64,000 nt of DNA, from positions 183,187 through 247,186 of the forward strand of contig CAVVXW010000003.1 in NCBI GenBank assembly GCA_963752335.1, read 5' to 3'. This stretch comes from an uncultured Acidimicrobiia bacterium. Lineage in GTDB: Bacteria > Actinomycetota > Acidimicrobiia > IMCC26256 > JAENVU01. The position numbers and the translations under genes were made by a program. The notes below the pieces were generated by a model. It was not told the origin of the DNA. It ran no database searches and worked only from the letters and a program-made list of their open reading frames with translations. Every line of letters starts with the position of its first letter. Position 1 is the first letter of the stretch. This document shows positions 6,047-33,331 of this stretch, piece by piece.

Positions 6047-6613
6047 ATGGGTCTCGACGCGGTCCCCTACAACGTCCTCACGGGCCGGCTGGAGGACCTC
6101 GTCCGTTGGGCGCGCCGGAACTCGGTGATGCCGGCGACGTTCGGCCTTGCCTGCTGCGCGCTCGAGATGATGGCGACGGGCGCGGCGCACTACGACCTCG
6201 CCCGCTTCGGGATGGAGACCTTCCGGGCCAGCCCGCGTCAGGCCGACCTCATGATCGTCGCGGGACGCGTGAGCCAGAAGATGGCTCCGGTGCTGCGCCA
6301 GGTGTACGACCAGATGGTCGAGCCCAAATGGGTCATCTCGATGGGCGTCTGCGCGAGCAGCGGCGGCATGTTCAACAACTACGCCATCGTGCAGGGCGTC
6401 GATCAGATCGTTCCGGTGGACGTGTACGTGCCGGGCTGTCCCCCGGGGCCCGAGACCCTGCTCCACGGCATCGTCACGCTGCACGAGCTCATCCGCACGG
6501 GTGAGTTGCTCGCGCGGCGTACGGCGTCGCCGTCGGGAGGCGCCGGGATCGAGGTCGCCCAGCGCGACGGGGTTCCGGTCGAGCTCCCGACCCCCGAGCC
6601 GGCGGGCGCCTGA
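6047..6613 (+). CDS. nuoB: NADH-quinone oxidoreductase subunit B (operon 1)
   Basis: ATG 6047 lies 2 nt after the nuoA stop. Cluster N2 cysteine motifs [18 protein letters not shown] and VPGCPP. Confidence 0.93.
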
Positions 6614-7188: not shown

Positions 7189-8561
7189 GCGACATCGACG
7201 ACGAGCTGGAGACGGTCGACGTCGAGACCGACGAGTACCTCGACGACGACGTCGACGACCACGAGCCCGTCACCGAGGAGATGATCGAGCGCGAGCACGA
7301 GCGGCTCGAGCGCCAGACCGACGAGGGCGCGCAGCAGCTCGTGCAGGAGTCCGAGATCGTCGTCACCGGCGGACCGTGGCCCGAGCTCGAGGGCGAGTCC
7401 CAGACCATGGTCATCAACATGGGCCCGCAGCACCCGTCGACCCACGGAGTGCTGCGGATCATGCTGGAGCTCGACGGCGAGACCGTCGTGCGCGCCAAGC
7501 CGGTCATCGGCTACCTCCACACGGGCATGGAGAAGACCGCCGAGCAGCTCACCTATGTCCAGGGCGCCACCAACGTCACGCGTATGGACTACGCGTCCCC
7601 GATCGCGAACGAGATCGTGTTCTCGACGGCGGTCGAGCGCCTTCTCGACATCGAGGTGCCCGAGCGTGCGGTGTGGGCGAGGATGCTGCTCGCCGAGCTG
7701 AGCCGGATGGCATCGCACCTCCTGTTCCAGGCCACCAACGGCATGGACCTCGGGGCCGTCTCGATGATGCTCTACGGCTGGCGCGAGCGCGAGGAGACGC
7801 TGCGGGTCCTCGAGCTCATCACCGGGCTGCGCATGAACCACAACTTCGTCCGACCGGGTGGCGTCGCGGCCGACCTGCCCGACGGCTGGCAGCTCGCGTG
7901 CCTCGAGCTCTGCGAGCTCGTCGAGCGCGGGATCAACGAATACGACGAGCTGCTCACCGGGAACCCGATCTGGCTCGAGCGGATGGTCGGCGTCGGCGTC
8001 ATCACGACCGAGGAGGCGCTGGCGCTCGGGGCCACGGGACCCATCTTGCGCTCGACCGGATTCGCGTGGGACCTCCGCAAGGTGCAGCCGTACCTCGCGT
8101 ACGACCAGGTCGACTTCGACGTCATCTACACCGAGAACGGCGACTGCTTCGACCGGTACCGGATCCGCCTCTACGAGATCGCGGAGTCCGTCAAGATCGT
8201 GCGTCAATGCGTGGATCGCATGCCCGGTGGCGACTACCGGCTCCAGGACAAGAAGGTCACGCCGCCACCGCGGGCGCGCATCGACGAGTCGATGGAGGCG
8301 CTCATCCACCACTTCAAGCTCTTCACGGAAGGGTTCCGGGTCCCCGCCGGCGAGACCTACGTCGCGGTGGAGTCCCCGCGTGGTGAGGTCGGTTGCTACC
8401 TGGTCAGCGACGGGACGGGGAAACCCGTACGGCTCCACATCCGGGGACCGTCCTTCTACAACCTGGGGTCGATGCACCCGATGATCAAGGACCGCATGAT
8501 CGCCGACGGTGTCGCGATCGTGTCGAGCGTCGATCCGATCATGGGCGAGGTGGACCGATGA
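7185..8561 (+). CDS. nuoD: NADH-quinone oxidoreductase subunit D (operon 1), with an acidic N-terminal extension
   Basis: ATG 7185 overlaps the nuoC stop (ATGA). Motifs INMGPQHPSTHGVLRI and GYLHTGMEK; the protein ends ...DPIMGEVDR. Confidence 0.93.
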   Translation: MSDIDDELETVDVETDEYLDDDVDDHEPVTEEMIEREHERLERQTDEGAQQLVQESEIVVTGGPWPELEGESQTMVINMGPQHPSTHGVLRIMLELDGETVVRAKPVIGYLHTGMEKTAEQLTYVQGATNVTRMDYASPIANEIVFSTAVERLLDIEVPERAVWARMLLAELSRMASHLLFQATNGMDLGAVSMMLYGWREREETLRVLELITGLRMNHNFVRPGGVAADLPDGWQLACLELCELVERGINEYDELLTGNPIWLERMVGVGVITTEEALALGATGPILRSTGFAWDLRKVQPYLAYDQVDFDVIYTENGDCFDRYRIRLYEIAESVKIVRQCVDRMPGGDYRLQDKKVTPPPRARIDESMEALIHHFKLFTEGFRVPAGETYVAVESPRGEVGCYLVSDGTGKPVRLHIRGPSFYNLGSMHPMIKDRMIADGVAIVSSVDPIMGEVDR

Positions 8562-21055: not shown

Positions 21056-21610
21056 ATGGACCCGGAGCGGCGAACCGTTGCCGAGCTCGAGGCCGGCCTC
21101 GAGGAGATCCGACGGTCCCCGGACACGGCCGGTGTGCTCGCCCTGATCGTGCGTCGCCCGGCGATCGATGCTCGCGAGGTGCTCGAATCGGGCGAACTGG
21201 ACGAATCCCTCGGACTCGTCGGCGACACGTGGAACGTGCGCCCCTCGCGCCGTACCGACGACGGCGGTCCTCACCCGGACATGCAGCTGAACGTGATGAA
21301 CGCGCGCGTCGCGGCCCTGGTCGCCGGCCCGGTCGAGCGCTGGCCGCTCGCGGGGGACCAGCTCTACGTCGACCTCGACCTGTCGGAGACGAATCTCCCG
21401 CCCGGCACCCGGCTCGCCCTCGGCGATGCCGTCATCGAGGTGACGGCGCAGCCGCACACCGGGTGCGCGAAGTTCTCCGGTCGCTTCGGCGCCGACGCGT
21501 TGCGCTTCGTGAACGAGCCCGGCGGCCGCGCGCTGCGGCTGCGGGGCATGAACGCCCGGGTGGTCTCGGGCGGCACCGTCTCCCGAGGTGACCCGGTCAC
21601 CAAGCTCTGA
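21056..21610 (+). CDS. MOSC domain-containing protein
   Basis: ORF 21056..21610. [14 protein letters not shown]...[20 protein letters not shown] resembles the MOSC beta-barrel with its conserved Cys. Confidence 0.7.
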
Positions 21611-21741: not shown

Positions 21742-22104
21742 GTGACGGAGTATTACCGGCAGTATCTCGCGGTCGCAGTGCTGATCGGCGCGGGGCTCGT
21801 CATGGTCGGCGGCATGCTGGGCCTCGGACGGCTCGTGCGCCCGACCCGACCCCAGCCCGAGAAGTACGTGACCTACGAGGCCGGCTCGGATCCCGTGGGG
21901 GGCTGGGGCCAGTCCAACGTGCGCTACTACGTCTACGCGCTCCTCTTCGTCATGTTCGACGTGGAAGCGGTGTTCATCTTCCCGTGGGCGACCCGCGTGG
22001 ACCACCTGGGTGTGACCACTCTCGTCTCGATGATCGTGTTCATCGTCGTGCTCACCCTCGGCCTCGTGTACGCGTGGCGGAAGGGGGTCCTGCGATGGGC
22101 CTAG
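21742..22104 (+). CDS. nuoA: NADH-quinone oxidoreductase subunit A (operon 2)
   Basis: ORF 21742..22104 (GTG start, GGAGGGG SD). Motifs YEAGSDP and [12 protein letters not shown]. Confidence 0.9.
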
Positions 22105-22646
22105 TCGAGAACGGCACCCTCGGGAAGAAGCCGCTCAAGCCCGTCACCTGGCTGCTCAACTACAGCCGCAAGTACAGCCTGTGGATGTTCCAGTGGGGCC
22201 TCGCGTGCTGCGCGATCGAGATGGGCGCCGCGCTCGCGAGTCCGCGCTACGACATGATGCGGCTCGGAGTCATCCCCTTCCCGGCGAGCCCCCGCCAGGC
22301 CGATCTCGTGGTGATCTCCGGCACCGTCACCGACAAGATGGCGCCCGCGATCAAGCGCCTGTACGAGCAGATGCCCGACCCGAAGTACGTGATCTCGATG
22401 GGCTCGTGTGCCAACTGCGGCGGGCCCTACTGGGACTCGTACTCGGTCACCAAGGGCGTGGATCAGATCATCCCGGTCGACATCTACATCCCGGGCTGTC
22501 CGCCCCGTCCGGAGGCGTTGCTCCAGGCCATCGTGATGCTCCAGGAGCGGATCCAGGGCGAGGGCATCGGCAACGACGAGCTCGCAGCGCGCTGGCGCGG
22601 CGAGTACGTCCCCGCGCAGCCCGTCCCCGACCCGGTGAGGGCCTAG
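22095..22646 (+). CDS. nuoB: NADH-quinone oxidoreductase subunit B (operon 2)
   Basis: ATG 22095 overlaps the nuoA2 end by 10 nt. Motifs [20 protein letters not shown] and IPGCPP. Confidence 0.92.
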
Positions 22647-22652
22647 CCCACG

Positions 22653-23423
22653 ATGGCCGACGACACCCCCGACGAGACGCCCGACGAGACCGGCGCGCCG
22701 GAGGCCGCGGACGACTCGCTGCCGGCGCCGACGGCGGACGCGACGCCCGAGCCGGCGGGCGCGACGCCCGAGCCTGCGGCCGAGCCCGAGGTGCCACCCG
22801 CGCTCGATCCCGAGGTGGAGGCGCTGCTCGCACGTCTCGAGCGCGTGCTCGGCGACGGTGTCGTCGAGCACGGCTCCATGCACGGCAACCTCGTCGTGCG
22901 CGTGCGTCCCGGCGCATGGCGGCGTGCCGCCGAGGTCGCGCGCGCCGAGCTCGACTGCGACTACCTCTCGTTCGTCTCCGGCATCGACTGGATGCCCGCT
23001 CCGAAGGCCGAAGGCGACGAGGGCGGCGACACGTCGGCGCCGGTCCAGCCCGACACGATGACCTTCGGCGTCGCCGGGTCCGAGGGCCGGCTGCAGGTGT
23101 TCGGGCACGTGCAGTCCACGTCGCGTCACTGGGGCGTCACGATCAAGACCGACGTCTCCGAGGACGAGCCCGCCGTCGACAGCTGGGTCCCCGTCTACCC
23201 GGGCGCCGACTGGCACGAGCGCGAGTGCTGGGAGATGTACGGCATCGACTTCCGCGGCCACCCGAAGATCCGCCACATCTACCTCCCGGGGGAGTTCGAG
23301 GGCCACCCCCTCCGCAAGGACTTCGCGCTGCTCGCGCGGGAGGTGAAGCCCTGGCCGGGGCTCGTCGACGTCGAGCCGATGCCCGGTGACGACACCGCGG
23401 ACGACGCGGACGCCGCCTCATGA
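22653..23423 (+). CDS. nuoC: NADH-quinone oxidoreductase subunit C (operon 2), with an acidic/Pro-rich N-terminal extension
   Basis: ORF 22653..23423. Motif HERECWEMYGIDFRGHPKIRHIYLPGEFEGHPLRKD. Confidence 0.9.
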   Translation: MADDTPDETPDETGAPEAADDSLPAPTADATPEPAGATPEPAAEPEVPPALDPEVEALLARLERVLGDGVVEHGSMHGNLVVRVRPGAWRRAAEVARAELDCDYLSFVSGIDWMPAPKAEGDEGGDTSAPVQPDTMTFGVAGSEGRLQVFGHVQSTSRHWGVTIKTDVSEDEPAVDSWVPVYPGADWHERECWEMYGIDFRGHPKIRHIYLPGEFEGHPLRKDFALLAREVKPWPGLVDVEPMPGDDTADDADAAS

Positions 23424-24598
23424 GCGCGACCGAGACCCCGGGCTTCCAGATCGACGCGTCCCTCTCCCGCCACCTCGCCGACGCGGCGGTGAACGTCGAG
23501 CTCGACACCGGCGACATGATCCTCAACCTGGGTCCCCAGCACCCGGCGACCCACGGCACGCTGCGGCTCGTGGTCCGCCTCGACGGCGAGCGCGTCGTCG
23601 CGGCCGACCCGGTGATCGGGTACATGCACCGGGGCTACGAGAAGCTGAGTGAGTTCCGTACCTACCCGCAGATCACGACCCTGATCAACCGCATCGACTG
23701 GCTGTCGAGCTTCGCCAACGAGGTGCCGTTCATCCACGGCGCCGAGCAGCTGATGGACATCGAGGCGCCGCCGCGGGCCCAGTGGATCCGCACGATCCTG
23801 ACCGAGCTGAGTCGCATCGCGACGATCTACCTCTTCCTCGGCGAGATGGGGCTCCAGGTCGGTGCGCTCACGCCCGCGTTCTGGGGCTTCCGCGACCGTG
23901 AGCACGTGCTCAATCTGATCGAGGGCGCGACCGGTGGTCGCTTCCACCCCAACTTCAACCGCATCGGGGGCATCAAGGACGACCTGCCGTGGGGCTGGAT
24001 CGTCGATTGCCGGGCCGCGATGAAGCGCATCCTCGACGGTTGCGACGACTTCGAGGACGTGCTCGTCGGCAACGAGATCTTCGTAGCGCGCACGCGCGGC
24101 ATCGGGATCATCCCCGGTGAGCTCGGCGCCGCGTACGGCGTCTCCGGCGCCAACCTGCGGGCCTCGGGCATCGACTGGGACCTGCGCCGCGACGGCAGGC
24201 CCTACCTCGCGTACCCCGAGCTCGACTTCAAGGTCTGGACCCACACCGACGGCGATTCGTTCGCTCGCTACTGGGTGCGGCTCCAGGAGACCCGCGAGTC
24301 GGCGCGCATGGTGCTGGCGCTGCTCGACGGGCTGCCCGCCGGGCCGATCATGGCCAAGGTCCCGCGCATCATCAAGGTGCCCGAGGGCGAGGCATGGGTC
24401 GAGACCGAGAACCCGCTCGGCCAGATGGGCTACTACATCGTGTCCAAGGGGGCGACGGGTCCGTTCCGCGTGAAGATCCGTTCGGCGTCGTTCTCGAACG
24501 TGTCGATCCTGCCGTGGTTGCTGCGGGGCGTCTACGTCCCCGACGTGATCACGATCCTCGGCAGCCTGTACTTCATCCTCGGGGACATCGACCGGTGA
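23420..24598 (+). CDS. nuoD: NADH-quinone oxidoreductase subunit D (operon 2)
   Basis: ATG 23420 overlaps the nuoC2 stop (ATGA). Motifs LNLGPQHPATHGTLRL and GYMHRGYEKL; the protein ends ...FILGDIDR. Confidence 0.93.
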   Translation: MSATETPGFQIDASLSRHLADAAVNVELDTGDMILNLGPQHPATHGTLRLVVRLDGERVVAADPVIGYMHRGYEKLSEFRTYPQITTLINRIDWLSSFANEVPFIHGAEQLMDIEAPPRAQWIRTILTELSRIATIYLFLGEMGLQVGALTPAFWGFRDREHVLNLIEGATGGRFHPNFNRIGGIKDDLPWGWIVDCRAAMKRILDGCDDFEDVLVGNEIFVARTRGIGIIPGELGAAYGVSGANLRASGIDWDLRRDGRPYLAYPELDFKVWTHTDGDSFARYWVRLQETRESARMVLALLDGLPAGPIMAKVPRIIKVPEGEAWVETENPLGQMGYYIVSKGATGPFRVKIRSASFSNVSILPWLLRGVYVPDVITILGSLYFILGDIDR

Positions 24599-24608
24599 GC
24601 GGGACGCG

Positions 24609-25637
24609 ATGACGCTCGCACTCGAGATCGGTTGGGGCACGACGCTCGCCATCAAGACCGTGATCGTGCTCGCGATCATTCCGCTGGGCGCGTTGATCCT
24701 CGGCTACACGTTCCTGCTCAAGATGATGAGCCACATGCAGAGCCGGCTCGGACCGATGGACCCCGGTGGGTTCCACGGCTGGTTCCAGCTCGTGGGCGAC
24801 GGCATCAAGTTCCTCCAGAAGGAGGACGTCATGCCGGCGGAGTCGGACCGCCGCGTGTTCGCCATCGCACCCGCAGTCGTGGTGATCTCGACGTTCCTGA
24901 TCTTCCTCGTCGTGCCCACGGGACCGCGGCTCGTCGTGCGCGATCTCGACGTCGGCGTCTTCTACGCGCTGGCCGTCTCGAGCCTCTCGGTGATCGGCGT
25001 GCTCATGGCCGGCTGGGCGAGCGCCAACAAGTTCGCGCTCATCGGCGCCCTGCGCGCCGCCGCGCAGCTCATCGCCTACGAGCTGCCGCTGCTGCTGGCG
25101 GTCGTCGGTGTGGTCATCCAGGCCGGCACGATGAACCTCCAGCACATCGTGCTCGCCCAGCAGAACGGGTCGATCTTCGGATTCGACGGCATCGGCAACC
25201 CGTTCATCCTCACGCAGTTCGTCGGGTTCCTGCTCTTCCTCGTCGCCGCGCAGGCCGAGCTCACCCAGACCCCGTTCGACATGCCCGTCGCCGAGTCCGA
25301 GCTGGTGGCGGGCTACATGGTCGAGTACACGGGCTTCCGGTTCCTCTTCTTCTTCATCGGCGAGTTCGGCACCGCATTCGCCTTCGCCGCGCTCGCCGCC
25401 ACCATGTTCCTCGGCGGCTGGGCGATCCCGGGGGTTCACGGTGGCATCGCGGACCTGCTCGGACCGATCGTGCTCTTCGTGAAGCTGATGATCGTCGCGT
25501 TCTTGATGTTCTGGGTCCGCTTCACCTACCCGCGCCTGCGCGAGGACCAGCTCCAGGCGCTCGCGTGGAAGTTCCTGATCCCGATCGGGCTCCTGAACAT
25601 CATCGCCACGGCGATCATCAAGGTGGCGGTCAACTGA
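24609..25637 (+). CDS. nuoH: NADH-quinone oxidoreductase subunit H (operon 2)
   Basis: ORF 24609..25637. Motifs PFDMPVAESELVAGYMVEYTG and RLREDQL. It follows nuoD2 directly, with no nuoE, nuoF or nuoG in between. Confidence 0.92.
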   Translation: MTLALEIGWGTTLAIKTVIVLAIIPLGALILGYTFLLKMMSHMQSRLGPMDPGGFHGWFQLVGDGIKFLQKEDVMPAESDRRVFAIAPAVVVISTFLIFLVVPTGPRLVVRDLDVGVFYALAVSSLSVIGVLMAGWASANKFALIGALRAAAQLIAYELPLLLAVVGVVIQAGTMNLQHIVLAQQNGSIFGFDGIGNPFILTQFVGFLLFLVAAQAELTQTPFDMPVAESELVAGYMVEYTGFRFLFFFIGEFGTAFAFAALAATMFLGGWAIPGVHGGIADLLGPIVLFVKLMIVAFLMFWVRFTYPRLREDQLQALAWKFLIPIGLLNIIATAIIKVAVN

Positions 25638-25670
25638 TGAGACCCGAATGCTCGGCGAAGGGCCGGTGAG

Positions 25671-26154
25671 ATGAAGAAGCCGCATCTCCCCGGCGTCATC
25701 AGCGGTCTGGGCGTGACGTTCCGCACGATGATGGAGGGCGCCGTCACCGTGCAGTACCCCCACGAGCGCGAGGATCCGCCCACCCGCGCGCGGCGTCATC
25801 GCGCTCAAGGAGGAGAACTGCACCGCGTGCATGCTCTGCGGTCGCAGCTGCCCCGACTGGTGCATCTACATCGAGGGCCACAAGGAGCTGCGACCGCCCC
25901 GGCGCGAAGGTGGCCGGCCCCGCAGCGTCAACATCCTCGACCGGTTCGACATCGACTACGGCCTCTGCATGTACTGCGGGATCTGCGTCGAGGTCTGTCC
26001 GTTCGACGCCCTCTTCTGGAGCCCCGAGTACGAGTACTCCGAACCCCGCATCGCTGATCTGCTCCACGACAAGGACCGTCTCGGCGAGTGGATGGAGTTC
26101 GTCCCCGAACCCGAGCCGCTCGAGCTCGGGGCCGAAGTCAAGGGCAAGAAGTGA
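25671..26154 (+). pseudogene. nuoI: NADH-quinone oxidoreductase subunit I (operon 2), frameshifted as assembled
   Basis: The N-terminus [37 protein letters not shown] is in the frame of ORF 25671. The rest ([27 protein letters not shown]...[12 protein letters not shown]) is in the +1 frame (ORF 25831..26154). The junction is at about 25783-25792 in cccacccgcgcgcggcg. Confidence 0.85.
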
Positions 26155-26220
26155 CGCCGCGCGTGGCCCACTCGAGGAGCACGACGTCTCCCGTTCCGCG
26201 GCGGAGCGGAGGCACACCGG

Positions 26221-26257
26221 GGAGCGAACGGCCGCCAGGTGGGTATCCCGTCGAGCA
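26221..26257 (+). promoter_or_regulatory. copy of the GGTAYCC-hairpin leader element in the nuoI2-nuoJ2 spacer
   Basis: ggagcgaacggccgccaggtgggtatcccgtcgagca matches the tuf repeat unit at 62206-62242 at 31 of 37 positions (counted by hand). It lies in a 118-nt gap in an otherwise tightly packed operon. Confidence 0.5.
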
Positions 26258-26272
26258 GACAGCGACGCAATC

Positions 26273-26788
26273 GTGATCGTCCAGAACATCTTCTTCTGGG
26301 TCTTCGCGGTCGCGATGATCGGTGCCGCGATCGGCGTGGTGCGCTCGCGCAACGTCGTGCACGCCGCCCTCTACCTGGTCGTCGTCATGGCCGGCGCCGC
26401 CGCGCAGTACATCCTGCTCGCGGCCGAGTTCGTCGCCTGGGTCCAGGTGATCATCTACATCGGCGCGGTGATCATCCTGTTCCTGTTCGGCATCATGCTC
26501 ACGCGCGCGCCGATGCGCGGTGAGACCGATCTCGACAACGACCAGAAGTGGCAGGGAGCGGTCGTCGGCGTGTTCCTCGCCGGCGTGCTCGGCACGCTGT
26601 TGATCCAAGCCTTCGGCGACAAGAAGATCGCGATCGGTGGCACCCAGGGTCAGAAGCTGCTGCACGTCGGGAAGGCCTCGACGGTCGCCGACACGATCTT
26701 CCGAGGCTACGTCGTGCCGTTCGAGCTCGTGTCGATCCTGCTGCTGGCCGCACTGGTCGGCGCGGTCGTGATCGCACGGAGGGACTGA
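26273..26788 (+). CDS. nuoJ: NADH-quinone oxidoreductase subunit J (operon 2)
   Basis: Frame of ORF 25910..26788 trimmed to GTG 26273. Begins [34 protein letters not shown] and ends [22 protein letters not shown]. Confidence 0.88.
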
Positions 26789-26789
26789 C

Positions 26790-27089
26790 GTGATCCTCAA
26801 CCAGTTCCTCGTGCTCGCGGCGATCCTCTTCTGCATCGGCGTCTACGGCGTGCTCGTCCGGCGCAACGGCGTGCTCGTGCTCATGAGCGTCGAGCTGATG
26901 CTGAACGCGGTGAACATCAACCTGGTCGCGTTCTCGGCCTATCTGCGCCAGACCGTGGGCGAGGTGTTCGCGCTGTTCGTCATCACGATCGCCGCCGCCG
27001 AGGTGGGCGTTGGTCTCGCCATCGTCCTGCTGATCTACCGCAACCTGCACAGCCCTGATCTCGACCGCGTCGAACAGCTGAAGGGGTAG
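26790..27089 (+). CDS. nuoK: NADH-quinone oxidoreductase subunit K (operon 2)
   Basis: ORF 26790..27089, intact at 99 aa. Motifs [17 protein letters not shown] and [19 protein letters not shown]. Confidence 0.92.
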
Positions 27090-27099
27090 GGAAGAGCTC

Positions 27100-29166
27100 G
27101 TGCTCGACTACGCGTGGATCATCCCGGCCATCCCGGTCGTGTCGTTCCTGGCGATCCTGTTCTTCGGGAAGAGGATGCCGAGGGGCGGATCCGAGATCGG
27201 CATCGTCGCGGTCGGCTCGACGTTCGTCCTCTCCTGCATCACCGCGGTGCAGTGGTTCGTCCGCGTCGAGGACGCGTCGGGCGGTGCCGCGGCGGCGGTG
27301 CGCGCGTTCGGCAAGGGTCTGATGCTGCGCGCCGGCGAGGAGGCCGTCGTCCGACCGGTCGTGCACACCGTCACCTGGTGGCGCAGCGGCTCGCTCGAGT
27401 TCAGCGTCGGCACCCGCATCGACGGGCTCGCGGTGATGATGCTCTTCGTCGTCACGTTGATCTCGCTGCTCGTGCACATCTACTCCACCGCGTACATGCA
27501 CGACGATGTGCGCTACACGTACTTCTACGCGGCGCTCAGCCTGTTCACGGCGTCGATGCTCACCCTGGTCGTCGCGTCGAACACGCTCGAGCTGCTCGTC
27601 GGCTGGGAGCTCGTCGGGCTCTGCTCGTTCATGCTGATCGGCCACTGGTGGGAGGAGCAGGAGAACAGCAACGCCGCGTTGAAGGCCTTCCTCACCACCC
27701 GCACCGGTGACATCGGCCTGATGATCGGCGTGATCGTCACCTTCTTCGCGGCCGATCAGAGCTTCGACATCGGGCGGATCAACACCGCGGCCCTGGCCGG
27801 GCTGAACGGCCACACCATCTGGGTCGTCGGGGCCGCGTGCCTGCTGATCGGGATCATCGGCAAGAGCGGTCAGTTCCCGCTCCACACCTGGCTGCCGGAC
27901 GCGATGGCCGGACCAACGCCGGTCTCCGCGCTCATCCACGCCGCGACCATGGTCGTCGCGGGGGTGTACCTCGGCGCCCGGGTGTACGGCGTCTTCTGGC
28001 AGGGCTTCTCGATCCAGGCCGGCGGCGTGAACGCCATGGCGCTCATCGGCGGTGTGACGATCATCATCGGTGCCGCGCTGGCCTTCGTGCAGGACGACAT
28101 CAAGAAGGTCCTCGCGTACTCCACGATCAGTCAGCTCGGCTACATGGTCATGGGGCTCGGTGTCGGCGCCTGGGTCGGCGCGGTGTTCCACCTCTTCACC
28201 CACGCCTTCTTCAAGGCGCTGCTCTTCCTCGGCGCCGGATCCATCAGCCACTCGGGATCGCACCACAGCTTCGACATGAAGAAGGACATGGGCGGCCTGC
28301 GCAAGCACATGCCGATCACGTTCTGGACCTTCATCATCGGCTCGCTCGCGCTCGCGGGCGTCGTACCCCTTGCGGGGTTCTGGTCCAAGGACGAGATCCT
28401 CGCCACCGCAGGCCAGGGCGGGTACGAGGTCTTCATGGTCATCGGCGTCGCCGGCGCCGTGCTCACCGCTGCCTACATGACCCGGTGCGTGTACCTCACG
28501 TTCTTCGGCGAGTACCGCGGTCACGGCCATCCGCACGAGTCGCCCAGGGCGATCACCGGGCCGCTCGTGGTGCTCGCCGGGCTGAGCGTCGTCGCCGGCC
28601 TCGCCAACGCGGCACCCATCGGCGTCGAGAAGTTCAAGGACTACGTCGAGCCGCGGATCGCGTTCCCCCCGGTGCACACGCCGAGCTTCGACTACCTGCT
28701 CGCCGGGCTCTCGGTCGGCGTCGTGCTCGCCGCGATCGGCTTCACGCTCTTCTTCTGGCTGGACCGCAAGGAGCTGCGCTCACTCAAGGGTCTGACGGAG
28801 CGGTCGGGCACGGCCAAGGCCGGCCACACCTTCCTCGTCAACAAGTACTACCTCGACCATCTGTACGAGAACGTGATCGTCGCGGGCATCAAGGGTCCGG
28901 TCGCCCGGGCCATGTACTGGGTGAACATGCACGTGATCGACGGGGTCGTGAACGGGGTCGGCCGGGGCACCACGGTGCTCGGTCGAGCGGTGTACCGCTT
29001 CGTGGACCAGGACACGGTCGACGGCGCGGTGAATGGGCTCGCGCGGGAGACGGACCAGGCCGGTGGCCTGCTCCGACCCCTGCAGTCGGGTCGGGTGCAG
29101 CGTTACGCGCTGTTCCTGTTCGGTTCCGTCGGGGTCATTGCCCTCGCGATCGCCATCTTCGGTTAG
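27100..29166 (+). CDS. nuoL: NADH-quinone oxidoreductase subunit L (operon 2)
   Basis: ORF 27100..29166. Motifs GWELVGLCSFMLIGHWW and [27 protein letters not shown]. Confidence 0.92.
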   Translation: MLDYAWIIPAIPVVSFLAILFFGKRMPRGGSEIGIVAVGSTFVLSCITAVQWFVRVEDASGGAAAAVRAFGKGLMLRAGEEAVVRPVVHTVTWWRSGSLEFSVGTRIDGLAVMMLFVVTLISLLVHIYSTAYMHDDVRYTYFYAALSLFTASMLTLVVASNTLELLVGWELVGLCSFMLIGHWWEEQENSNAALKAFLTTRTGDIGLMIGVIVTFFAADQSFDIGRINTAALAGLNGHTIWVVGAACLLIGIIGKSGQFPLHTWLPDAMAGPTPVSALIHAATMVVAGVYLGARVYGVFWQGFSIQAGGVNAMALIGGVTIIIGAALAFVQDDIKKVLAYSTISQLGYMVMGLGVGAWVGAVFHLFTHAFFKALLFLGAGSISHSGSHHSFDMKKDMGGLRKHMPITFWTFIIGSLALAGVVPLAGFWSKDEILATAGQGGYEVFMVIGVAGAVLTAAYMTRCVYLTFFGEYRGHGHPHESPRAITGPLVVLAGLSVVAGLANAAPIGVEKFKDYVEPRIAFPPVHTPSFDYLLAGLSVGVVLAAIGFTLFFWLDRKELRSLKGLTERSGTAKAGHTFLVNKYYLDHLYENVIVAGIKGPVARAMYWVNMHVIDGVVNGVGRGTTVLGRAVYRFVDQDTVDGAVNGLARETDQAGGLLRPLQSGRVQRYALFLFGSVGVIALAIAIFG

Positions 29167-29179
29167 GGGAACACGAAAG

Positions 29180-30700
29180 ATGAACTGGTTCCACGATTGG
29201 GGTCTGACGCTGGCGATCTTCGTGCCGGCCGTCGGTCTGGGCTTGGTGCTGCTCGTGCCGAAGGCCGAGGAGAACACCGCGAAGGTCGTCGCGCTGCTCA
29301 CGAGCCTCGTGACGTTGGCGGTCGGTGTCGGCATCCTCGCCGACTTCGACTACGGCCGCGCCGGGAAGCTGCAGTTCGGCGTCAACGAGAAGTGGATCGA
29401 CGTCATCAGCGCGCGCTACCACCTGGGGCTCGACGGCATCTCGCTCCCGCTGCTGATCCTGTCGATGCTGATGACAGTGCTGTGCATCGTCTACTCGTGG
29501 AACCACTTCCCCGAGCCGCACAACCCGAAGGCGTTCCTGGCGCTGATCCTGGTGCTCGAGGTCGGCATGAACGGCACGTTCCTCGCCCAGGACCTGATCC
29601 TCTTCTTCATCTTCTTCGAGATCGTCCTGCTCCCGATGTTCTTCATGATCGGCGTCTGGGGAGGGCCCAACCGGGAGTACGCGTCGATCAAGTTCTTCCT
29701 CTTCACGCTGTTCGGCTCCGCGCTGATGCTGCTGAGCTTCCTGGCCCTGTTCTTCCTCCAGGGTTCGTTCCAGATCCCCGTGCTCGCGCACATGGGCGAC
29801 GGCAACCTCGCGGAGACCACGCGTCTGCTGATCTTCGGCGGCCTGTTCCTCGGTTTCGCGATCAAGGTCCCGATGTTCCCGTTCCACACCTGGCTCCCCG
29901 ATGCCCACACCGAGGCGCCGACCGTCGGTTCGGTGCTCCTGGCGGCCATCCTCCTGAAGCTCGGGACGTACGGCTTCATCCGCATCGCGCTGCCCACGTT
30001 GCCGCACGCGGCGCAGGCGTGGGCGCCGTGGATCGGCGCGCTCGCGGTGATCGGCATCATCTACGGCGCGCTGTGCTGCCTCGCCCAGACCGACATGAAG
30101 CGGCTGATCGCGTTCTCGTCGGTGGCGCACATGGGGTTCGTGATGCTCGCCATCGCGTCGCTCACCACGTTCGGCCTCAACGCCGCGGTGTTCGGGATGG
30201 TGGCGCACGGCTTGATCACCGGCATGCTCTTCTTCATCGCCGGTTCCATGCAGCACACCTACGGAACCCGGCAGATGAGCCGCCTCGGCGGCCTGCTCAA
30301 ACAGGCGCCCAAGATGGGCTGGATCCTCGGCTTCTGCGCGATGGCCTCACTCGGGCTTCCCGGTCTCGCCGGCTTCTGGGGTGAGTTCCCGGCGGTGCTG
30401 TCTGCGTACAACCCCGGTGGTGACCTGTCTGCCCCGCTCTTCCGCACGTTCATGGTCATCGCCGCGGTCGGCACGGTCCTGGCCGCGGGATACCTGCTGT
30501 GGATGTACCAACGAGTGGCGTTCGGCGAGCCGAAGGCCGAGTTCGCGGACGCGCACATCCACGACGTGAGCACGATCGAGTGGATCGCGTGGACACCGCT
30601 GCTCCTGCTCATCGTGGTGCTCGGCGTGTACCCGGACACCGTCTTCTCGCTGAGCAACGACGCGGTGACCCACATCGCCCGGGCGTTCAAGGTCGGGTGA
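29180..30700 (+). CDS. nuoM: NADH-quinone oxidoreductase subunit M (operon 2)
   Basis: Frame of ORF 29033..30700 trimmed to ATG 29180. Motifs FFIFFEIVLLPMFFMI and PFHTWLPDAHTEAPTVGSVLLAAILLKLG. Confidence 0.92.
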   Translation: MNWFHDWGLTLAIFVPAVGLGLVLLVPKAEENTAKVVALLTSLVTLAVGVGILADFDYGRAGKLQFGVNEKWIDVISARYHLGLDGISLPLLILSMLMTVLCIVYSWNHFPEPHNPKAFLALILVLEVGMNGTFLAQDLILFFIFFEIVLLPMFFMIGVWGGPNREYASIKFFLFTLFGSALMLLSFLALFFLQGSFQIPVLAHMGDGNLAETTRLLIFGGLFLGFAIKVPMFPFHTWLPDAHTEAPTVGSVLLAAILLKLGTYGFIRIALPTLPHAAQAWAPWIGALAVIGIIYGALCCLAQTDMKRLIAFSSVAHMGFVMLAIASLTTFGLNAAVFGMVAHGLITGMLFFIAGSMQHTYGTRQMSRLGGLLKQAPKMGWILGFCAMASLGLPGLAGFWGEFPAVLSAYNPGGDLSAPLFRTFMVIAAVGTVLAAGYLLWMYQRVAFGEPKAEFADAHIHDVSTIEWIAWTPLLLLIVVLGVYPDTVFSLSNDAVTHIARAFKVG

Positions 30701-30704
30701 CATC

Positions 30705-32167
30705 GTGAACCCCGGTTGGGACTTCCATGCGATCGCCCCGATCATCATCGTGTCGGCGACGATCGTCGTGGTGCTGATCGCCGACTTCTTCTTCGAGTAC
30801 CGCGGCCGGTTCCAGACCCAACAGCTCGCGACCTTCGGTGTGCTCGCGGCGATGATCCCGATCATCTCTCTCGCGGTCGACGGAGGGACGCGCGATGTTC
30901 GGAGGCGGATTCGTCGTCGATCCGTACTCGCTGGTGTTCCAGGGGTTCTTCCTCGCGGCGGCGTACGTCTCGATGCTGCTCTCGGTCGACTACATCGGCG
31001 ACGGCGACTACTACCAGGGCGAGTTCTACGTGCTGCTGCTCACGTCGCTGCTCGGCATGATGATCATGGCCAGCGCGCGGGACCTCGTCTCGATCTTCGT
31101 CGCGCTGGAGACGATCTCGATCCCGACGTTCGTGCTGGCCGGCTGGCGCAAGCACGATCCGAAGTCGAACGAAGCCGCGATCAAGTACTACCTCATCGGC
31201 GTCCTCTCGTCGGCGGTGATGCTCTACGGCATGTCGCTCGTGTTCGGGCTCACCGGATCCACGCTGTTGACCGACATCGCCCACAAGGTGGGCCGGATCG
31301 ACGAGCCGCTGCTGCTCGTGGCCGGCTTCCTGACGATCGTCGGGTTCGCCTTCAAGGTGAGCGCCGTGCCGTTCCACTTCTGGGCCCCGGACACGTACGA
31401 GGGGGCGCCCACTCCGGTGACCGCGTTCCTCTCCGTCGCATCCAAGGCCGGTGGATTCGTGGCGCTGCTCTCGGTCGTGGTCTTCGGCTTCTTCCCGAAC
31501 GCCGACATGTGGCAACCCGCGCTGTGGGTGCTCGCGGCCGCGTCGATGATCCTCGGCAACCTCGTCGCGCTGCGCCAGACCAACGTGATCCGCATGCTGG
31601 CCTACTCGTCGATCGCCCAGGGCGGGTTCATCCTCGTGCCGTTCGCAGTGGCGCCCGACGGCAACGCCCTCACCTCCTCGATCGAGGCCGTCGTCGTCTA
31701 CATCCTCATCTACGGCGCCATGAACCTCGGCGCGTTCGCGGTCGTCATCGCGCTCGCCCGGCGGACGCGCAGCGCCGAGATCTCCAGCTTCGCCGGCCTC
31801 GGGCAGTACGCGCCGGTCATGGCGCTGATGATGTCGATGTTCCTGTTCTCGCTCGCCGGTGTCCCGCCGTTCGCGGGGTGGTTCGCCAAGTTCACGATGT
31901 TCCGCGCCGCGCTCGACGCGAACACGCCGGGCGCCACGGTGCTCGGTGCGATCGCGGCGGTCAGCTCGGTGATCGCGTTCTTCTACTACGTGCGGGTCGC
32001 AGCGCGAGATCTGGTTCCACCCGACCGGTGACGGCGCCGACACTGCCCCCATCGCCACCCCCACTGCGCTCAACGCGGCGGTGGTGCTGTGCGCGGCCGT
32101 CGTGCTCGTCGTGGGCGTGTATCCGCAGCTGTTCGCCCGATTGGGCGAGCTCGCCGCCGGCGGCTGA
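30705..32167 (+). pseudogene. nuoN: NADH-quinone oxidoreductase subunit N (operon 2), two frame disruptions as assembled
   Basis: The gene lies in three consecutive frames. (1) GTG 30705 to about 30893: VNPGWDFHAIAPIIIVSATIVVVLIADFF...AVDGGTRD. (2) 30895 to about 32001: MFGGGFVVDPYSLV...FHFWAPDTYEGAPTPVTAF...FFYYVRV. (3) About 32003 to TGA 32165-32167: REIWFHPTGDGADTAPIATPTALNAAVVLCAAVVLVVGVYPQLFARLGELAAGG. Confidence 0.85.
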
Positions 32168-32176
32168 TCCGGCGCC

Positions 32177-33331
32177 GTGGACGACGCGGGCCCACCGACG
32201 CCGCGGACCCCGATCGTCGAGCACATCCATCGACTCGGACCCATGCGGTTCGGCGACTTCGTCGAGCTCGCGTTGTACGGCCCCGGGGGCTTCTTCACCC
32301 GCGGCGGCGGGGCCGGCCGTGCCGGCCGCGACTTCCTGACCAGTCCCGAGATCGGGCCGCTCTTCGGCGTCTGCGTGGCGCGGGCGCTCGACCGGGAGTG
32401 GGCGCGCCAGGGTCGGCCGGATCCGTTCGTCGTTGTGGAGGCCGGCGCCGGGAACGGGCGGCTGTGCCGAGAGGTGCTCCGCGCCGGTCCGGAGTGCGCC
32501 CCCGCGTTGCACTACGTGCTCGTCGAGCGCAGTCCCGTCCTGCGTGCGCACCAGGCGGAGCACCTCCCGCTCGAGCCCCTCGCGGACGTCCTCGGCCCGG
32601 CGCGGCCGGGCGCACCCGACGACGCCGCGGTTCCCGTCGCCGGGCTCGGTCCGATCGTCAGCGCGCTCGCCGAGCTCCCGGCGCGCCCCGTCGACGGTGT
32701 CGTGCTCGCCAACGAGCTGCTCGACAACCTGCCCTTCGAGGTCGTGGTCCGGGAACCCGCCGGGTGGTCGGAGATCCGGGTCGGCATGACGGGGGACGAT
32801 CTCGTCGAGATCCTCGTCCCGGCCGCGCCCGACCTCCTCGAGTGGGTCGGGGAGCTCGACGTGGCGCCAGGAACGCGGCTCCCCGTCCCGACGCGTGCCG
32901 TCGACTGGATCGTCGCCGCGGCGCACGAGCTCCGACGCGGCTCCGTGTGGATCGTCGACTACGCCGCGCCGTGGGTCGAGCTGGCGGCGCGCGACGGCGG
33001 TTGGCTCCGGACCTACGCGTCACACGAGCGCGCCGACGGACCGCTCGCCGCGCCCGGGTCGTGTGATGTCACCATCGACGTGCCCGTGGAGATGGTCGAG
33101 CGCGCCGCGCGTCGCGCCGGCCTCGCCGTCGCCACCTCCACCCAGGCGGCGTGGCTGCGCGACCTCGGGATCGACGGCCTCGTCGCCGAAGGCGCCGCCC
33201 GTTGGGAGGCCGGCGCCGCGGCGCCCGACCTGGAGGCGCTCGCCGGGCGGAGCCGCGGCGTCGAAGCCGCGGCGCTGACGGACCCCGGGGGTCTCGGGGC
33301 GCACACCGTCTTCGTCCTCACCACGTCCTGA
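32177..33331 (+). CDS. MidA/NDUFAF7-family (DUF185) SAM-dependent methyltransferase
   Basis: ORF 32177..33331 (GTG start). MRFGDFVELALYGPGGFFTRGGGAGRAGRDFLTSPEIGPLFG, VVEAGAGNGRL and VVLANELLDNLPF match the MidA family pattern as I recall it. It starts 9 nt after the corrected nuoN2 stop. Confidence 0.75.
   Translation: MDDAGPPTPRTPIVEHIHRLGPMRFGDFVELALYGPGGFFTRGGGAGRAGRDFLTSPEIGPLFGVCVARALDREWARQGRPDPFVVVEAGAGNGRLCREVLRAGPECAPALHYVLVERSPVLRAHQAEHLPLEPLADVLGPARPGAPDDAAVPVAGLGPIVSALAELPARPVDGVVLANELLDNLPFEVVVREPAGWSEIRVGMTGDDLVEILVPAAPDLLEWVGELDVAPGTRLPVPTRAVDWIVAAAHELRRGSVWIVDYAAPWVELAARDGGWLRTYASHERADGPLAAPGSCDVTIDVPVEMVERAARRAGLAVATSTQAAWLRDLGIDGLVAEGAARWEAGAAAPDLEALAGRSRGVEAAALTDPGGLGAHTVFVLTTS

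What the first reader, a model, noticed from the sequence alone, without database searches (positions are those of the whole stretch)
32177..33331. An NDUFAF7/MidA-family methyltransferase is linked to the nuo operon whose NuoD keeps the methyl-acceptor arginine
What the sequence shows:
- A MidA/DUF185-type SAM methyltransferase starts 9 nt after the corrected nuoN2 stop. Its motifs are FVELALYGPGGFF...GDFLTSPEIGPLFG, VEAGAGNGRL and LANELLDNLPF.
- NuoD2 reads GYMHRGYEKL, with the Arg codon CGG at 23630-23632.
- NuoD1, from the canonical 14-gene operon, reads GYLHTGMEKT, with Thr ACG at 7521-7523.

Established knowledge: eukaryotic NDUFAF7 (MidA) is a complex I assembly factor. It symmetrically dimethylates Arg85 (precursor Arg118) of NDUFS2, the NuoD homolog. 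Counting the human sequence from memory, that residue is the R of the LLHRGTEK motif.

Inference: this bacterial MidA homolog may methylate NuoD2 and act as a dedicated maturation factor of the EFG-less complex. As far as I know, the bacterial role of this family is uncharacterised.
Basis: partly seen in the sequence, partly recalled or inferred. Interest (0 to 1): 0.6.

Follow-up and report, generated by a model that had tools for sequence, protein, structure and literature searches.

The report
MidA methyltransferase ending second complex-I operon
The last gene of a second, 11-gene complex-I operon in this Acidimicrobiia genome encodes a relative of the mitochondrial enzyme NDUFAF7/MidA, and it probably methylates an arginine found only in that operon's NuoD; the case is well supported by comparison, unproven by experiment, and already glimpsed in the literature.

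Summary
ORF 32177-33331 is a true MidA/NDUFAF7-family methyltransferase: Pfam PF02636 at E 2.6e-40, and an AF2 model whose best PDB matches are MidA/COG1565 structures. It starts 9 nt after nuoN2 of an 11-gene nuo operon that lacks nuoEFG.

NuoD2 Arg71 aligns with NDUFS2 Arg85; NuoD1 has Thr there. NuoB shows the reverse pattern: NuoB1 carries the Thermus Nqo6-R83 arginine and NuoB2 has Thr.

Comparative support:
- nuoN2 lies upstream of MidA in 80 of 80 related loci.
- In 251 Acidimicrobiia genomes, 223 have both MidA and NuoD2-type NuoD, 18 have neither and 10 are discordant.
- In other Actinomycetota, MidA sits beside a solitary nuoD2 that is detached from its operon.

Limits:
- Methylation is untested.
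- Four Actinomycetota genomes have a complete nuo2 operon and no MidA, so the enzyme is not obligatory.
- The window's nuoI2 and nuoN2 carry frameshifts, probably assembly errors.

The gene order was already listed for Ca. Actinomarina (bioRxiv 10.1101/2021.02.01.429150), and this scan has noted the same thing in at least 92 other genomes. Verdict: a new member of a known kind, of moderate interest.

The parts
32177..33331 (+). midA: MidA/NDUFAF7-family (PF02636, COG1565) SAM-dependent methyltransferase, 384 aa, GTG start
   Evidence: Pfam E 2.6e-40. PDB sequence hits to 1zkd, 4f3n and 5ztz. AF2 model pLDDT 91; Foldseek top hits 4g67, 5ztz, 5zu0, 4f3n and 1zkd at TM 0.71-0.79.
21742..22104 (+). 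nuoA2
   Evidence: Pfam Oxidored_q4, E 3.8e-34
22095..22646 (+). nuoB2. All four N2 cysteine positions are present. Thr (ACC 22323-22325) stands where T. thermophilus Nqo6 has R83.
   Evidence: Pfam Oxidored_q6; alignment to mammalian PSST; motif scan
22653..23423 (+). nuoC2
   Evidence: Pfam Complex1_30kDa, E 6.2e-33
23420..24598 (+). nuoD2. The proposed substrate residue is Arg71 (CGG 23630-23632) in the HRGxE motif. Trp94 (TGG 23699-23701) stands where T. thermophilus Nqo4 has the quinone-ligating Tyr87.
   Evidence: Pfam Complex1_49kDa, E 2.2e-77; alignments to Nqo4 and NDUFS2; coordinates
24609..25637 (+). nuoH2
   Evidence: Pfam NADHdh, E 4.2e-97
25671..26154 (+). nuoI2, with an apparent 2-base deletion near 25784 that splits the frame
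   Evidence: N-terminus in the frame of 25671; two CxxCxxCxxxCP motifs in the frame of 25732; indel relative to G015
26273..26788 (+). nuoJ2 (start uncertain: GTG 26273 or ATG 26315)
   Evidence: Pfam Oxidored_q3, E 1.1e-36; start candidates
26790..27089 (+). nuoK2
   Evidence: Pfam Oxidored_q2, E 5.4e-30
27100..29166 (+). nuoL2
   Evidence: Pfam Proton_antipo_M and Proton_antipo_N
29180..30700 (+). nuoM2 (ATG 29180 is the likely start within ORF 29033-30700)
   Evidence: Pfam Proton_antipo_M, E 9.3e-77; start candidates
30705..32167 (+). nuoN2, read through two apparent frameshifts (2 bases missing near 30894, 1 base extra at 32001); stop TGA 32165-32167
   Evidence: Pfam Proton_antipo_M on 30895-32031; sequence; indels relative to G015; N-terminal frame
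7191..8561 (+). nuoD1 of the 14-gene operon. Thr (ACG 7521-7523) stands at the position of the methyl-acceptor arginine, and the quinone Tyr is kept.
6050..6613 (+). nuoB1 (conserved part). Arg (CGC 6266-6268) is equivalent to T. thermophilus Nqo6 R83.
   Evidence: alignment to 2fug_6 and 8e9g_B

Best explanation
The ORF encodes a MidA/NDUFAF7-type SAM-dependent protein arginine methyltransferase. It is transcribed as the twelfth and last gene of the nuo2 operon.

Its most likely job is to methylate Arg71 of NuoD2, probably by symmetric dimethylation. [quoted passage not shown] The modification would happen during or before the joining of NuoD2 with NuoB2, as NDUFAF7 does for NDUFS2 Arg85 in mitochondria.

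The co-resident 14-subunit complex would not need the enzyme, because it places the equivalent arginine on NuoB1 (the Thermus Nqo6-R83 solution) and has Thr in NuoD1.

Shown: family membership, fold, operon position, conservation of the linkage, co-occurrence, and residue equivalence.

Inferred: the enzymatic activity, the substrate residue, and the timing in assembly.
For: 1. Family and fold. PF02636 at 138.9 bits. PDB sequence hits include Dictyostelium MidA 5ztz. The AF2 model has pLDDT 91, and its six best Foldseek matches are all COG1565/MidA structures at TM 0.71-0.79, against about 0.3 for other methyltransferases. The glycine-rich motif VEAGAGNG and the family motif ANELLDNLP are invariant or nearly so across 24 homologues.

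2. Operon position. There are 9 nt between the nuoN2 stop and the start codon. No terminator-like site lies between the nuoN2 stop and midA; the one such site in the scanned stretch lies inside nuoN2. In 80 of 80 related loci nuoN2 lies directly upstream on the same strand. The gaps that could be measured are mostly -4 to about 135 nt, a few reach 179-210 nt, and two are longer.

3. Co-occurrence. Of 251 Acidimicrobiia genomes at least 85% complete, 223 have both MidA and NuoD2-type NuoD, 18 have neither, and 10 are discordant. The family f22 genomes keep both genes although the two lie far apart. Five MidA-less genomes, one of them closed (G082), have only HTG-type NuoD.

4. A second, different architecture. 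In seven other Actinomycetota genomes MidA lies 0.25-7.6 kb from a solitary nuoD2, with no other nuo gene within about 8 kb, while a NuoB2-type gene lies elsewhere.

5. Substrate residue. NuoD2 R71 aligns with NDUFS2 R85. Arg is present in 47 of 47 NuoD2 sequences, and Thr in every NuoD1 examined.

6. Reciprocal NuoB pattern. NuoB1 has Arg at Nqo6-R83 and NuoB2 has Thr, as does mitochondrial PSST. PMC8042128 states that Nqo6-R83 and NDUFS2-R121 occupy the same space.

7. Precedent. The arginine is dimethylated in Paracoccus Nqo4 and not in E. coli (PMC3750175). The MidA family search also found nothing in most of the tool's 14 control genomes.
Against: - No biochemical or mass-spectrometric data exist for any actinobacterial MidA or NuoD2.
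- Identity to characterised MidA proteins is only 20-27%, and orthology with the mitochondrial enzyme was not tested by phylogeny.
- MidA is dispensable for nuo2-type complexes in some lineages. G272, G275, G276 and G277 have complete 11-gene nuo2 operons and no PF02636 match. Of 10 MidA-less Actinomycetota genomes examined, 7 still have an Arg-type NuoD.
- Within Acidimicrobiia both genes are nearly universal, and where they are adjacent a single missing contig removes both. Much of the co-occurrence is therefore shared ancestry. The G026 'co-loss' is explained by a contig that ends in nuoL1.
- The conserved downstream acs gene shows that general synteny is also high.
- In this window nuoI2 and nuoN2 are frameshifted. 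If the frameshifts are real, the partner complex is decaying.
Confidence: 0.65

Rival explanations
1. MidA serves the nuo2 complex in a way other than methylating NuoD2 Arg71. It could methylate another residue or another subunit, or act mainly as a binding or assembly chaperone for NuoD2, with catalysis secondary.
For: The linkage evidence ties MidA to NuoD2 or nuo2, not to a particular residue. Some NuoD2-type proteins read HRA rather than HRG, including one in a MidA-positive genome (G365), although methylated arginines are usually followed by Gly (PMC3750175). MidA-less genomes keep the Arg.
Against: The SAM-binding motif and the family motifs are strictly conserved, which argues for catalysis. 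The only known substrate of the family is exactly this arginine (PMC3829151). MidA stays beside nuoD2 specifically when nuoD2 leaves the operon. The Arg/Thr difference between NuoD2 and NuoD1 fits the target.
Confidence: 0.2
2. The adjacency is inherited synteny with no functional tie. MidA would then methylate an unrelated cellular protein, and it lies after nuoN2 simply because the ancestor of the class had it there.
For: acs is also conserved downstream in most loci, so gene order in this region is generally stable. MidA and NuoD2 are both nearly universal in the class. MidA-less nuo2 operons exist.
Against: A second, different arrangement (solitary nuoD2 next to MidA, usually convergent) occurs in other classes. 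The family f22 genomes keep both genes when they are unlinked. Whole families, and a closed genome, lack both together. All 15 MidA-positive genomes examined outside the class carry an Arg-type NuoD. The nuoN2-midA junction is tighter and more constant than the midA-acs junction.
Confidence: 0.1
3. In this particular genome the nuo2 operon is a decaying pseudogene cluster, and midA is a surviving remnant without a partner.
For: Relative to G015 there are three frame-breaking indels in nuoI2 and nuoN2, and one further uncompensated 1-base difference near the 3' end of nuoC2.
Against: Frame-breaking differences between the two assemblies occur at a similar rate in the nuo1 region and in downstream regions. 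The indels lie in GC-rich CG-repeat contexts. The genome is a 6-contig, 55%-complete assembly, and other few-contig relatives also show split NuoD2 hits (G002, G003). GC3 periodicity stays strong through nuo2. All of this fits assembly error.
Confidence: 0.05

Closest known systems
Mitochondrial NDUFAF7 (human) / MidA (Dictyostelium; PDB 5ztz, 5zu0) acting on NDUFS2 Arg85
   Same: Same Pfam family and same fold. The putative substrate is the homologous subunit with the homologous arginine in the HRGxE motif. It is presumed to be needed when the NuoD and NuoB modules join.
   Different: Only about 20% identity. The gene lies inside the operon of its presumed substrate. It would serve an 11-subunit complex that lacks NuoEFG, and whose NuoD has Trp at the quinone-ligating Tyr position. 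The activity is untested.
Paracoccus denitrificans Nqo4 with symmetric dimethyl-arginine, and alpha-proteobacterial MidA homologues (1zkd; Shahul Hameed et al. 2018)
   Same: This is a bacterial complex I whose NuoD arginine is methylated (PMC3750175), in an organism with a MidA homologue. The window's protein matches 1zkd at E 1.3e-20.
   Different: There the complex is the canonical 14-subunit enzyme. To my knowledge (not tested here) midA is not part of that nuo operon. Here a 14-subunit complex co-exists and lacks the arginine.
Thermus thermophilus (and Mycobacterium smegmatis) complex I, with Thr in Nqo4 and Arg83 in Nqo6
   Same: The window's NuoD1/NuoB1 pair has exactly this arrangement.
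   Different: It describes complex 1 of this organism, not the MidA-linked complex 2. It is the internal control that explains why only NuoD2 would need MidA.
E. coli NuoCD (HRG arginine present, unmethylated, no MidA)
   Same: It shows that an Arg-type NuoD can work without MidA. The same is seen here in four Actinomycetota genomes with nuo2 and no MidA.
   Different: This genome does encode MidA, inside the operon.
Ca. Actinomarina gene cluster described by Bulzu et al. (bioRxiv 10.1101/2021.02.01.429150)
   Same: The same gene order, an 11-subunit nuoABCDHIJKLMN followed by NDUFAF7 (K18164/PF02636), in an Acidimicrobiia lineage that also has a 14-subunit complex nearby.
   Different: That paper lists the gene as an accessory factor in passing. 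In the passages I read, it does not mention the Arg/Thr difference between the two NuoD copies, the NuoB swap or the phylogenetic spread. Here there is no heliorhodopsin context; a MOSC-domain gene lies upstream and acs downstream.

Membership tests
MidA / NDUFAF7 (Pfam Methyltransf_28, PF02636; COG1565) | Scores above the curated Pfam gathering threshold over the whole domain | tested here: met
   138.9 bits against a cut-off of 23.3, covering profile positions 1-246 of 249. It is the only PF02636 match in the genome.
MidA / NDUFAF7 (Pfam Methyltransf_28, PF02636; COG1565) | Family-specific fold: a class I methyltransferase core plus the MidA-type additional domains | tested here: met
   AF2 model with pLDDT 91 and pTM 0.90. 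Foldseek ranks 1-6 are 4g67, 5ztz, 5zu0, 4f3n and 1zkd at TM 0.71-0.79. The next hits are generic methyltransferases at TM about 0.3.
MidA / NDUFAF7 (Pfam Methyltransf_28, PF02636; COG1565) | SAM-binding glycine-rich motif I and the conserved ANE(L/F)xD motif | tested here: met
   VEAGAGNGRL and LANELLDNLPF are present. G92, N179, E180, D183 and N184 are invariant, and G90, A91 and G94 nearly so, across 24 homologues.
MidA / NDUFAF7 (Pfam Methyltransf_28, PF02636; COG1565) | Symmetric dimethylation of the HRGxE arginine of NuoD/NDUFS2 | not testable with these tools
   Needs mass spectrometry or an in vitro assay. Only the presence and equivalence of the arginine were shown.
MidA / NDUFAF7 (Pfam Methyltransf_28, PF02636; COG1565) | Orthology with the mitochondrial and alpha-proteobacterial enzyme, as opposed to a paralogous subfamily | not tested
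   No family tree was built. Identity to 1zkd, 4f3n and 5ztz is 20-27%, and there is no NCBIfam model.
11-subunit complex I-like enzyme lacking the NADH module (nuoABCDHIJKLMN) | Eleven contiguous co-directional genes A, B, C, D, H, I, J, K, L, M, N with no nuoE, nuoF or nuoG | tested here: met
   Pfam assignments for all eleven genes. nuoE, nuoF and nuoG are found only in the first operon.
11-subunit complex I-like enzyme lacking the NADH module (nuoABCDHIJKLMN) | Intact reading frames for all subunits in this genome | tested here: not met
   nuoI2 and nuoN2 are frameshifted in the window. They are intact in the close relative G015/L029, so assembly error is likely, though not proven.
11-subunit complex I-like enzyme lacking the NADH module (nuoABCDHIJKLMN) | Canonical quinone-site residues of NuoD (His38 and Tyr87 in T. 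thermophilus numbering) | tested here: not met
   The His is kept (residue 45), but Tyr87 is replaced by Trp94. The Trp is present in 47 of 47 NuoD2 orthologues.

The most novel reading that the evidence does not exclude
Acidimicrobiia, and with a detached nuoD2 many other Actinomycetota, run two complex I isoforms that solve the 'arginine next to cluster N2' problem in two ways. One is an unmodified Arg on NuoB (complex 1, Thermus type). The other is an Arg on NuoD that is methylated by an operon-encoded MidA (complex 2, mitochondrial type).

In complex 2 the methylation, together with the Tyr-to-Trp change in the quinone pocket, would tune N2 and the acceptor site of an enzyme with no NADH module. 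That would give a natural bacterial system in which the assembly role and the redox-tuning role of arginine dimethylation can be separated. It would be genetically tractable in Streptomyces-like relatives.
Probability: 0.3. Interest if true: 0.6.

Novelty: new member of a known kind. Interest (0 to 1): 0.4.

Why it matters
It is still unsettled what the symmetric dimethylation of the complex I arginine does: whether it serves assembly, tunes the N2 potential, or both (PMC8042128). Every functional test so far has been in mitochondria.

A bacterial lineage that encodes the methyltransferase inside the operon of one complex I isoform, next to a second isoform that carries the arginine on the other subunit, offers a built-in control. 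The related solitary nuoD2-midA pair in other Actinomycetota points to organisms that may be cultivable.

The finding also gives one of the clearest genomic arguments for the function of the bacterial PF02636 family, which NCBI's naming models leave unnamed. It extends known biology and does not overturn it. The gene order has been printed before.

Tried and rejected
Co-transcription and the reality of the frameshifts therefore remain untested.
- G026 as a clean co-loss within a genus. Rejected: its nuo1 contig ends inside nuoL1, so nuo2 and midA may simply be unassembled.
- A strict rule 'MidA if and only if Arg-type NuoD' across the phylum. Rejected: 7 of 10 MidA-less genomes have an Arg-type NuoD, and 4 have complete nuo2 operons. 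Only the one-way rule held (15 of 15 MidA-positive genomes have an Arg-type NuoD).
- The search for related loci with a 24-sequence alignment returned only Acidimicrobiia-like loci. Other phyla were therefore not surveyed, apart from the tool's control hits in Caulobacter, Synechococcus and Haloferax.
- The Cell Reports 2018 MidA paper could not be read. Its content is cited second-hand from PMC9006661 and PMC12455994.
- NCBIfam has no model for the protein.
- Script slip: some of my tblastn queries were cut in the wrong frame (NuoM2 from 29197; NuoF1 and NuoG1). Their hits mark the right loci, but their identities are not meaningful. No conclusion rests on them.
- Unpublished genomes: G255 is one of the 251 in the class tallies. 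G270, G314, G352 and G381 are in the phylum tally. G270 is one of the 15 MidA-positive genomes with an Arg-type NuoD.
Full report
**Observation.** The window is 69% G+C. It is contig 3 of a 2.46-Mb, 6-contig, 55%-complete genome of the class Acidimicrobiia, judging from the names carried by close homologues and related loci.

It matches Pfam Methyltransf_28 (PF02636) at E 2.6e-40, 138.9 bits against a cut-off of 23.3, and it is the only such gene in the genome. By sequence it hits the three solved members of the family: 1zkd (DUF185, Rhodopseudomonas), 4f3n (COG1565, Burkholderia) and 5ztz (Dictyostelium MidA).

An AlphaFold2 model built on a 24-sequence alignment has mean pLDDT 91. Its six best Foldseek matches in the PDB are exactly these proteins at TM 0.71-0.79, with a large drop to generic methyltransferases. 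Family membership is therefore secure.

The GTG at 32177 is the first start after the in-frame nuoN2 stop (TGA 32165-32167) and lies 9 nt downstream of it. The N-terminal 30 residues are conserved and confidently folded. The shorter public gene call that starts at ATG 32243 is therefore probably truncated.

**The operon.** Upstream lie eleven co-directional genes, nuoA2, B2, C2, D2, H2, I2, J2, K2, L2, M2 and N2, spanning 21742-32167. There is no nuoE, F or G among them. The canonical 14-gene operon, with nuoE, F and G, ends at 21006, and a small MOSC-domain gene sits between the two operons.

NuoD2 reads GYMHRGYEKL, with Arg71 encoded by CGG at 23630-23632. NuoD1 reads GYLHTGMEKT, with ACG at 7521-7523. 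Alignment to mammalian NDUFS2 places NuoD2 R71 on R85 of the mature protein, which is R118 of the precursor. Alignment to T. thermophilus Nqo4 shows that Thermus, like NuoD1, has Thr at this position.

**What is known.**
- The arginine of the HRGxE motif is symmetrically dimethylated in bovine, human, Pichia, Yarrowia and Paracoccus complex I, but not in E. coli (PMC3750175, PMC8042128).
- NDUFAF7 is the responsible enzyme in human cells (PMC3829151).
- In T. thermophilus the residue is Thr, and Arg83 of Nqo6 fills the same space next to cluster N2 (PMC8042128).

**A reciprocal pattern in NuoB.** I checked the partner subunit.
- NuoB1 has Arg (CGC 6266-6268) exactly at Nqo6-R83, as does M. smegmatis NuoB.
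- NuoB2 has Thr (ACC 22323-22325), as does mitochondrial PSST.
- The pattern holds in every NuoB1-type and NuoB2-type sequence I examined, including 24 NuoB2 sequences from related loci.

The organism thus encodes a Thermus-type complex (Arg on NuoB, Thr on NuoD) and a mitochondrial-type complex (Thr on NuoB, Arg on NuoD). The methyltransferase is attached to the second.

**Linkage.**
- In 40 relatives spanning 17 families of the same order, MidA lies 8.4-9 kb downstream of NuoD2 on the same strand wherever the contigs allow it to be seen.
- In 80 loci retrieved from species-representative genomes, whose MidA identity to the window falls as low as 43%, a nuoN2 homologue lies directly upstream in all 80.
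- The intergenic gaps that could be measured are mostly -4 to about 135 nt. A few reach 179-210 nt, and two are longer, at 1.07 and 3.5 kb.
- acs is also usually downstream, but at more variable distance.

**Co-occurrence.** I sampled 251 Acidimicrobiia genomes at least 85% complete.
- 227 have MidA and 229 have a NuoD2-type NuoD.
- By intersecting the two tables, 223 have both, 18 have neither, 6 have only NuoD2 and 4 have only MidA.
- At least two of the six NuoD2-only cases have NuoD2 at a contig end.
- The 'neither' genomes include all 12 of family f32 and both of family f33, one of which (G082) is closed.
- Five 'neither' genomes that I checked carry only an HTG-type NuoD.
- Family f22 and allied families keep both MidA and a GYMHRGYEK-type NuoD2 even though the two genes lie hundreds of kilobases apart or on different contigs. 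This is the more informative kind of co-presence.
- One apparent co-loss within a genus (G026) is unsafe, because its contig ends inside nuoL1.

**Outside the class.** In a sample of 131 Actinomycetota genomes, 48 have MidA.
- All 15 MidA-positive genomes examined outside Acidimicrobiia have an Arg-type NuoD.
- In seven of them MidA lies 0.25-7.6 kb from a NuoD2-type gene that stands alone, with no other nuo gene within about 8 kb. A NuoB2-type gene lies elsewhere in the genome.
- When nuoD2 leaves its operon, MidA therefore stays with nuoD2. This second architecture is the strongest argument that the tie is to NuoD2 specifically.
- Against an obligatory role, four MidA-less genomes have complete 11-gene nuo2 operons, and 7 of 10 MidA-less genomes have an Arg-type NuoD. 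Like E. coli, some lineages run an Arg-type NuoD without the enzyme.

**Most likely mechanism.** MidA is co-expressed with nuo2. It methylates Arg71 of NuoD2 before or while NuoD2 docks onto NuoB2, next to cluster N2, whose four cysteine positions NuoB2 retains. I put about 0.65 on this.

The remaining probability is divided among three readings:
- a role for MidA in nuo2 other than methylating this residue;
- mere inherited synteny;
- decay of nuo2 in this particular genome.

**Frameshifts.** Relative to the close relative G015 (88-94% nucleotide identity):
- nuoI2 lacks 2 bases near 25784;
- nuoN2 lacks 2 bases near 30894 and has 1 extra base at 32001;
- midA and acs show only compensated indels.

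Net frame-breaking differences occur at a comparable rate in the nuo1 region and further downstream, and they lie in GC-rich CG-repeat contexts. Assembly error is therefore the likelier cause. I could not check reads.

**Novelty.** The gene order is already in print. Bulzu et al. list an 11-subunit nuo operon followed by NDUFAF7 (PF02636) in Ca. Actinomarina, alongside a 14-subunit complex.

Earlier reports of this scan describe the same arrangement, or the solitary nuoD2-midA pair, in at least 92 other genomes. I treated these as leads only. One of them prompted the check that NuoD2 has Trp at the quinone-ligating Tyr87 position; that holds here and in 47 of 47 orthologues.

I found no paper that notes the Arg/Thr difference between the two NuoD copies, the reciprocal NuoB pattern, or the phylogenetic spread. 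That is limited to the library held.

I class the finding as a new member of a known kind, with moderate interest. Its value is as a natural bacterial system for testing what this arginine methylation does.

Noticed in passing
window 23699-23701 (NuoD2 Trp94): NuoD2 has Trp where T. thermophilus Nqo4 has the quinone-ligating Tyr87; NuoD1 keeps Tyr. The Trp is present in 47 of 47 NuoD2 orthologues and in the solitary NuoD2-type genes of other Actinomycetota. The acceptor site of complex 2 therefore differs from canonical complex I.
   Followed up: partly
window 6266-6268 (NuoB1 Arg) and 22323-22325 (NuoB2 Thr): There is a reciprocal swap of the arginine next to cluster N2. NuoB1 carries the Thermus Nqo6-R83 arginine, and NuoB2 has Thr as mitochondrial PSST does. 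This mirrors the Thr in NuoD1 and the Arg in NuoD2, and it is consistent in all NuoB sequences examined.
   Followed up: yes
window 25784, 30894, 32001 (also 23336): There are frame-breaking indels in nuoI2 and nuoN2 relative to the close relative G015, and one uncompensated 1-base difference near the end of nuoC2. All lie in GC-rich CG-repeat contexts. Similar differences occur elsewhere in the window, so assembly error is likely but unproven.
   Followed up: partly
L144-L150 (G292, G291, G325, G311, G283, G360, G365): In other Actinomycetota a solitary nuoD2-type gene, with no other nuo gene within about 8 kb, lies 0.25-7.6 kb from a MidA gene, usually in convergent orientation. A NuoB2-type gene lies elsewhere in the genome.
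   Followed up: partly
L164-L167 (G272, G275, G276, G277): These Actinomycetota genomes have a complete 11-gene nuo2 operon directly after nuo1 but no PF02636 gene anywhere. Two of them (G275, G277) read HRA instead of HRG in NuoD2.
   Followed up: partly
window 21056-21610 (+): A small MOSC-domain gene (Pfam E 2.1e-06) sits between nuoN1 and nuoA2. Its relation to either complex is unknown.
   Followed up: no
window 33380-35341 (+): An acetyl-CoA synthetase gene follows midA. It is conserved downstream in most of the 80 related loci, though at variable distance (0.05 to about 6 kb).
   Followed up: partly
G224:C2:17182-18201, G162:C124:7227-8258, G031:C7:256652-257653, G020:C14:7505-8506: A third, distant NuoD-like gene (28-30% identity to NuoD2 over nearly its full length) occurs in some Acidimicrobiia. 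It may be a [NiFe]-hydrogenase or Mbh-type large subunit.
   Followed up: no
L120-L123, L128, L129, L135 (small Actinomycetota genomes of 1.4-2.8 Mb): A third NuoD type combines Arg in HRG with Tyr at the quinone site (the mitochondrial/Paracoccus pattern). It is found as the only NuoD in several small genomes, most of which also have MidA.
   Followed up: no
window 32243 versus 32177: The public gene call for midA starts at ATG 32243 (362 aa). It omits a conserved and confidently folded N-terminal helix; GTG 32177 fits the homologues better.
   Followed up: yes
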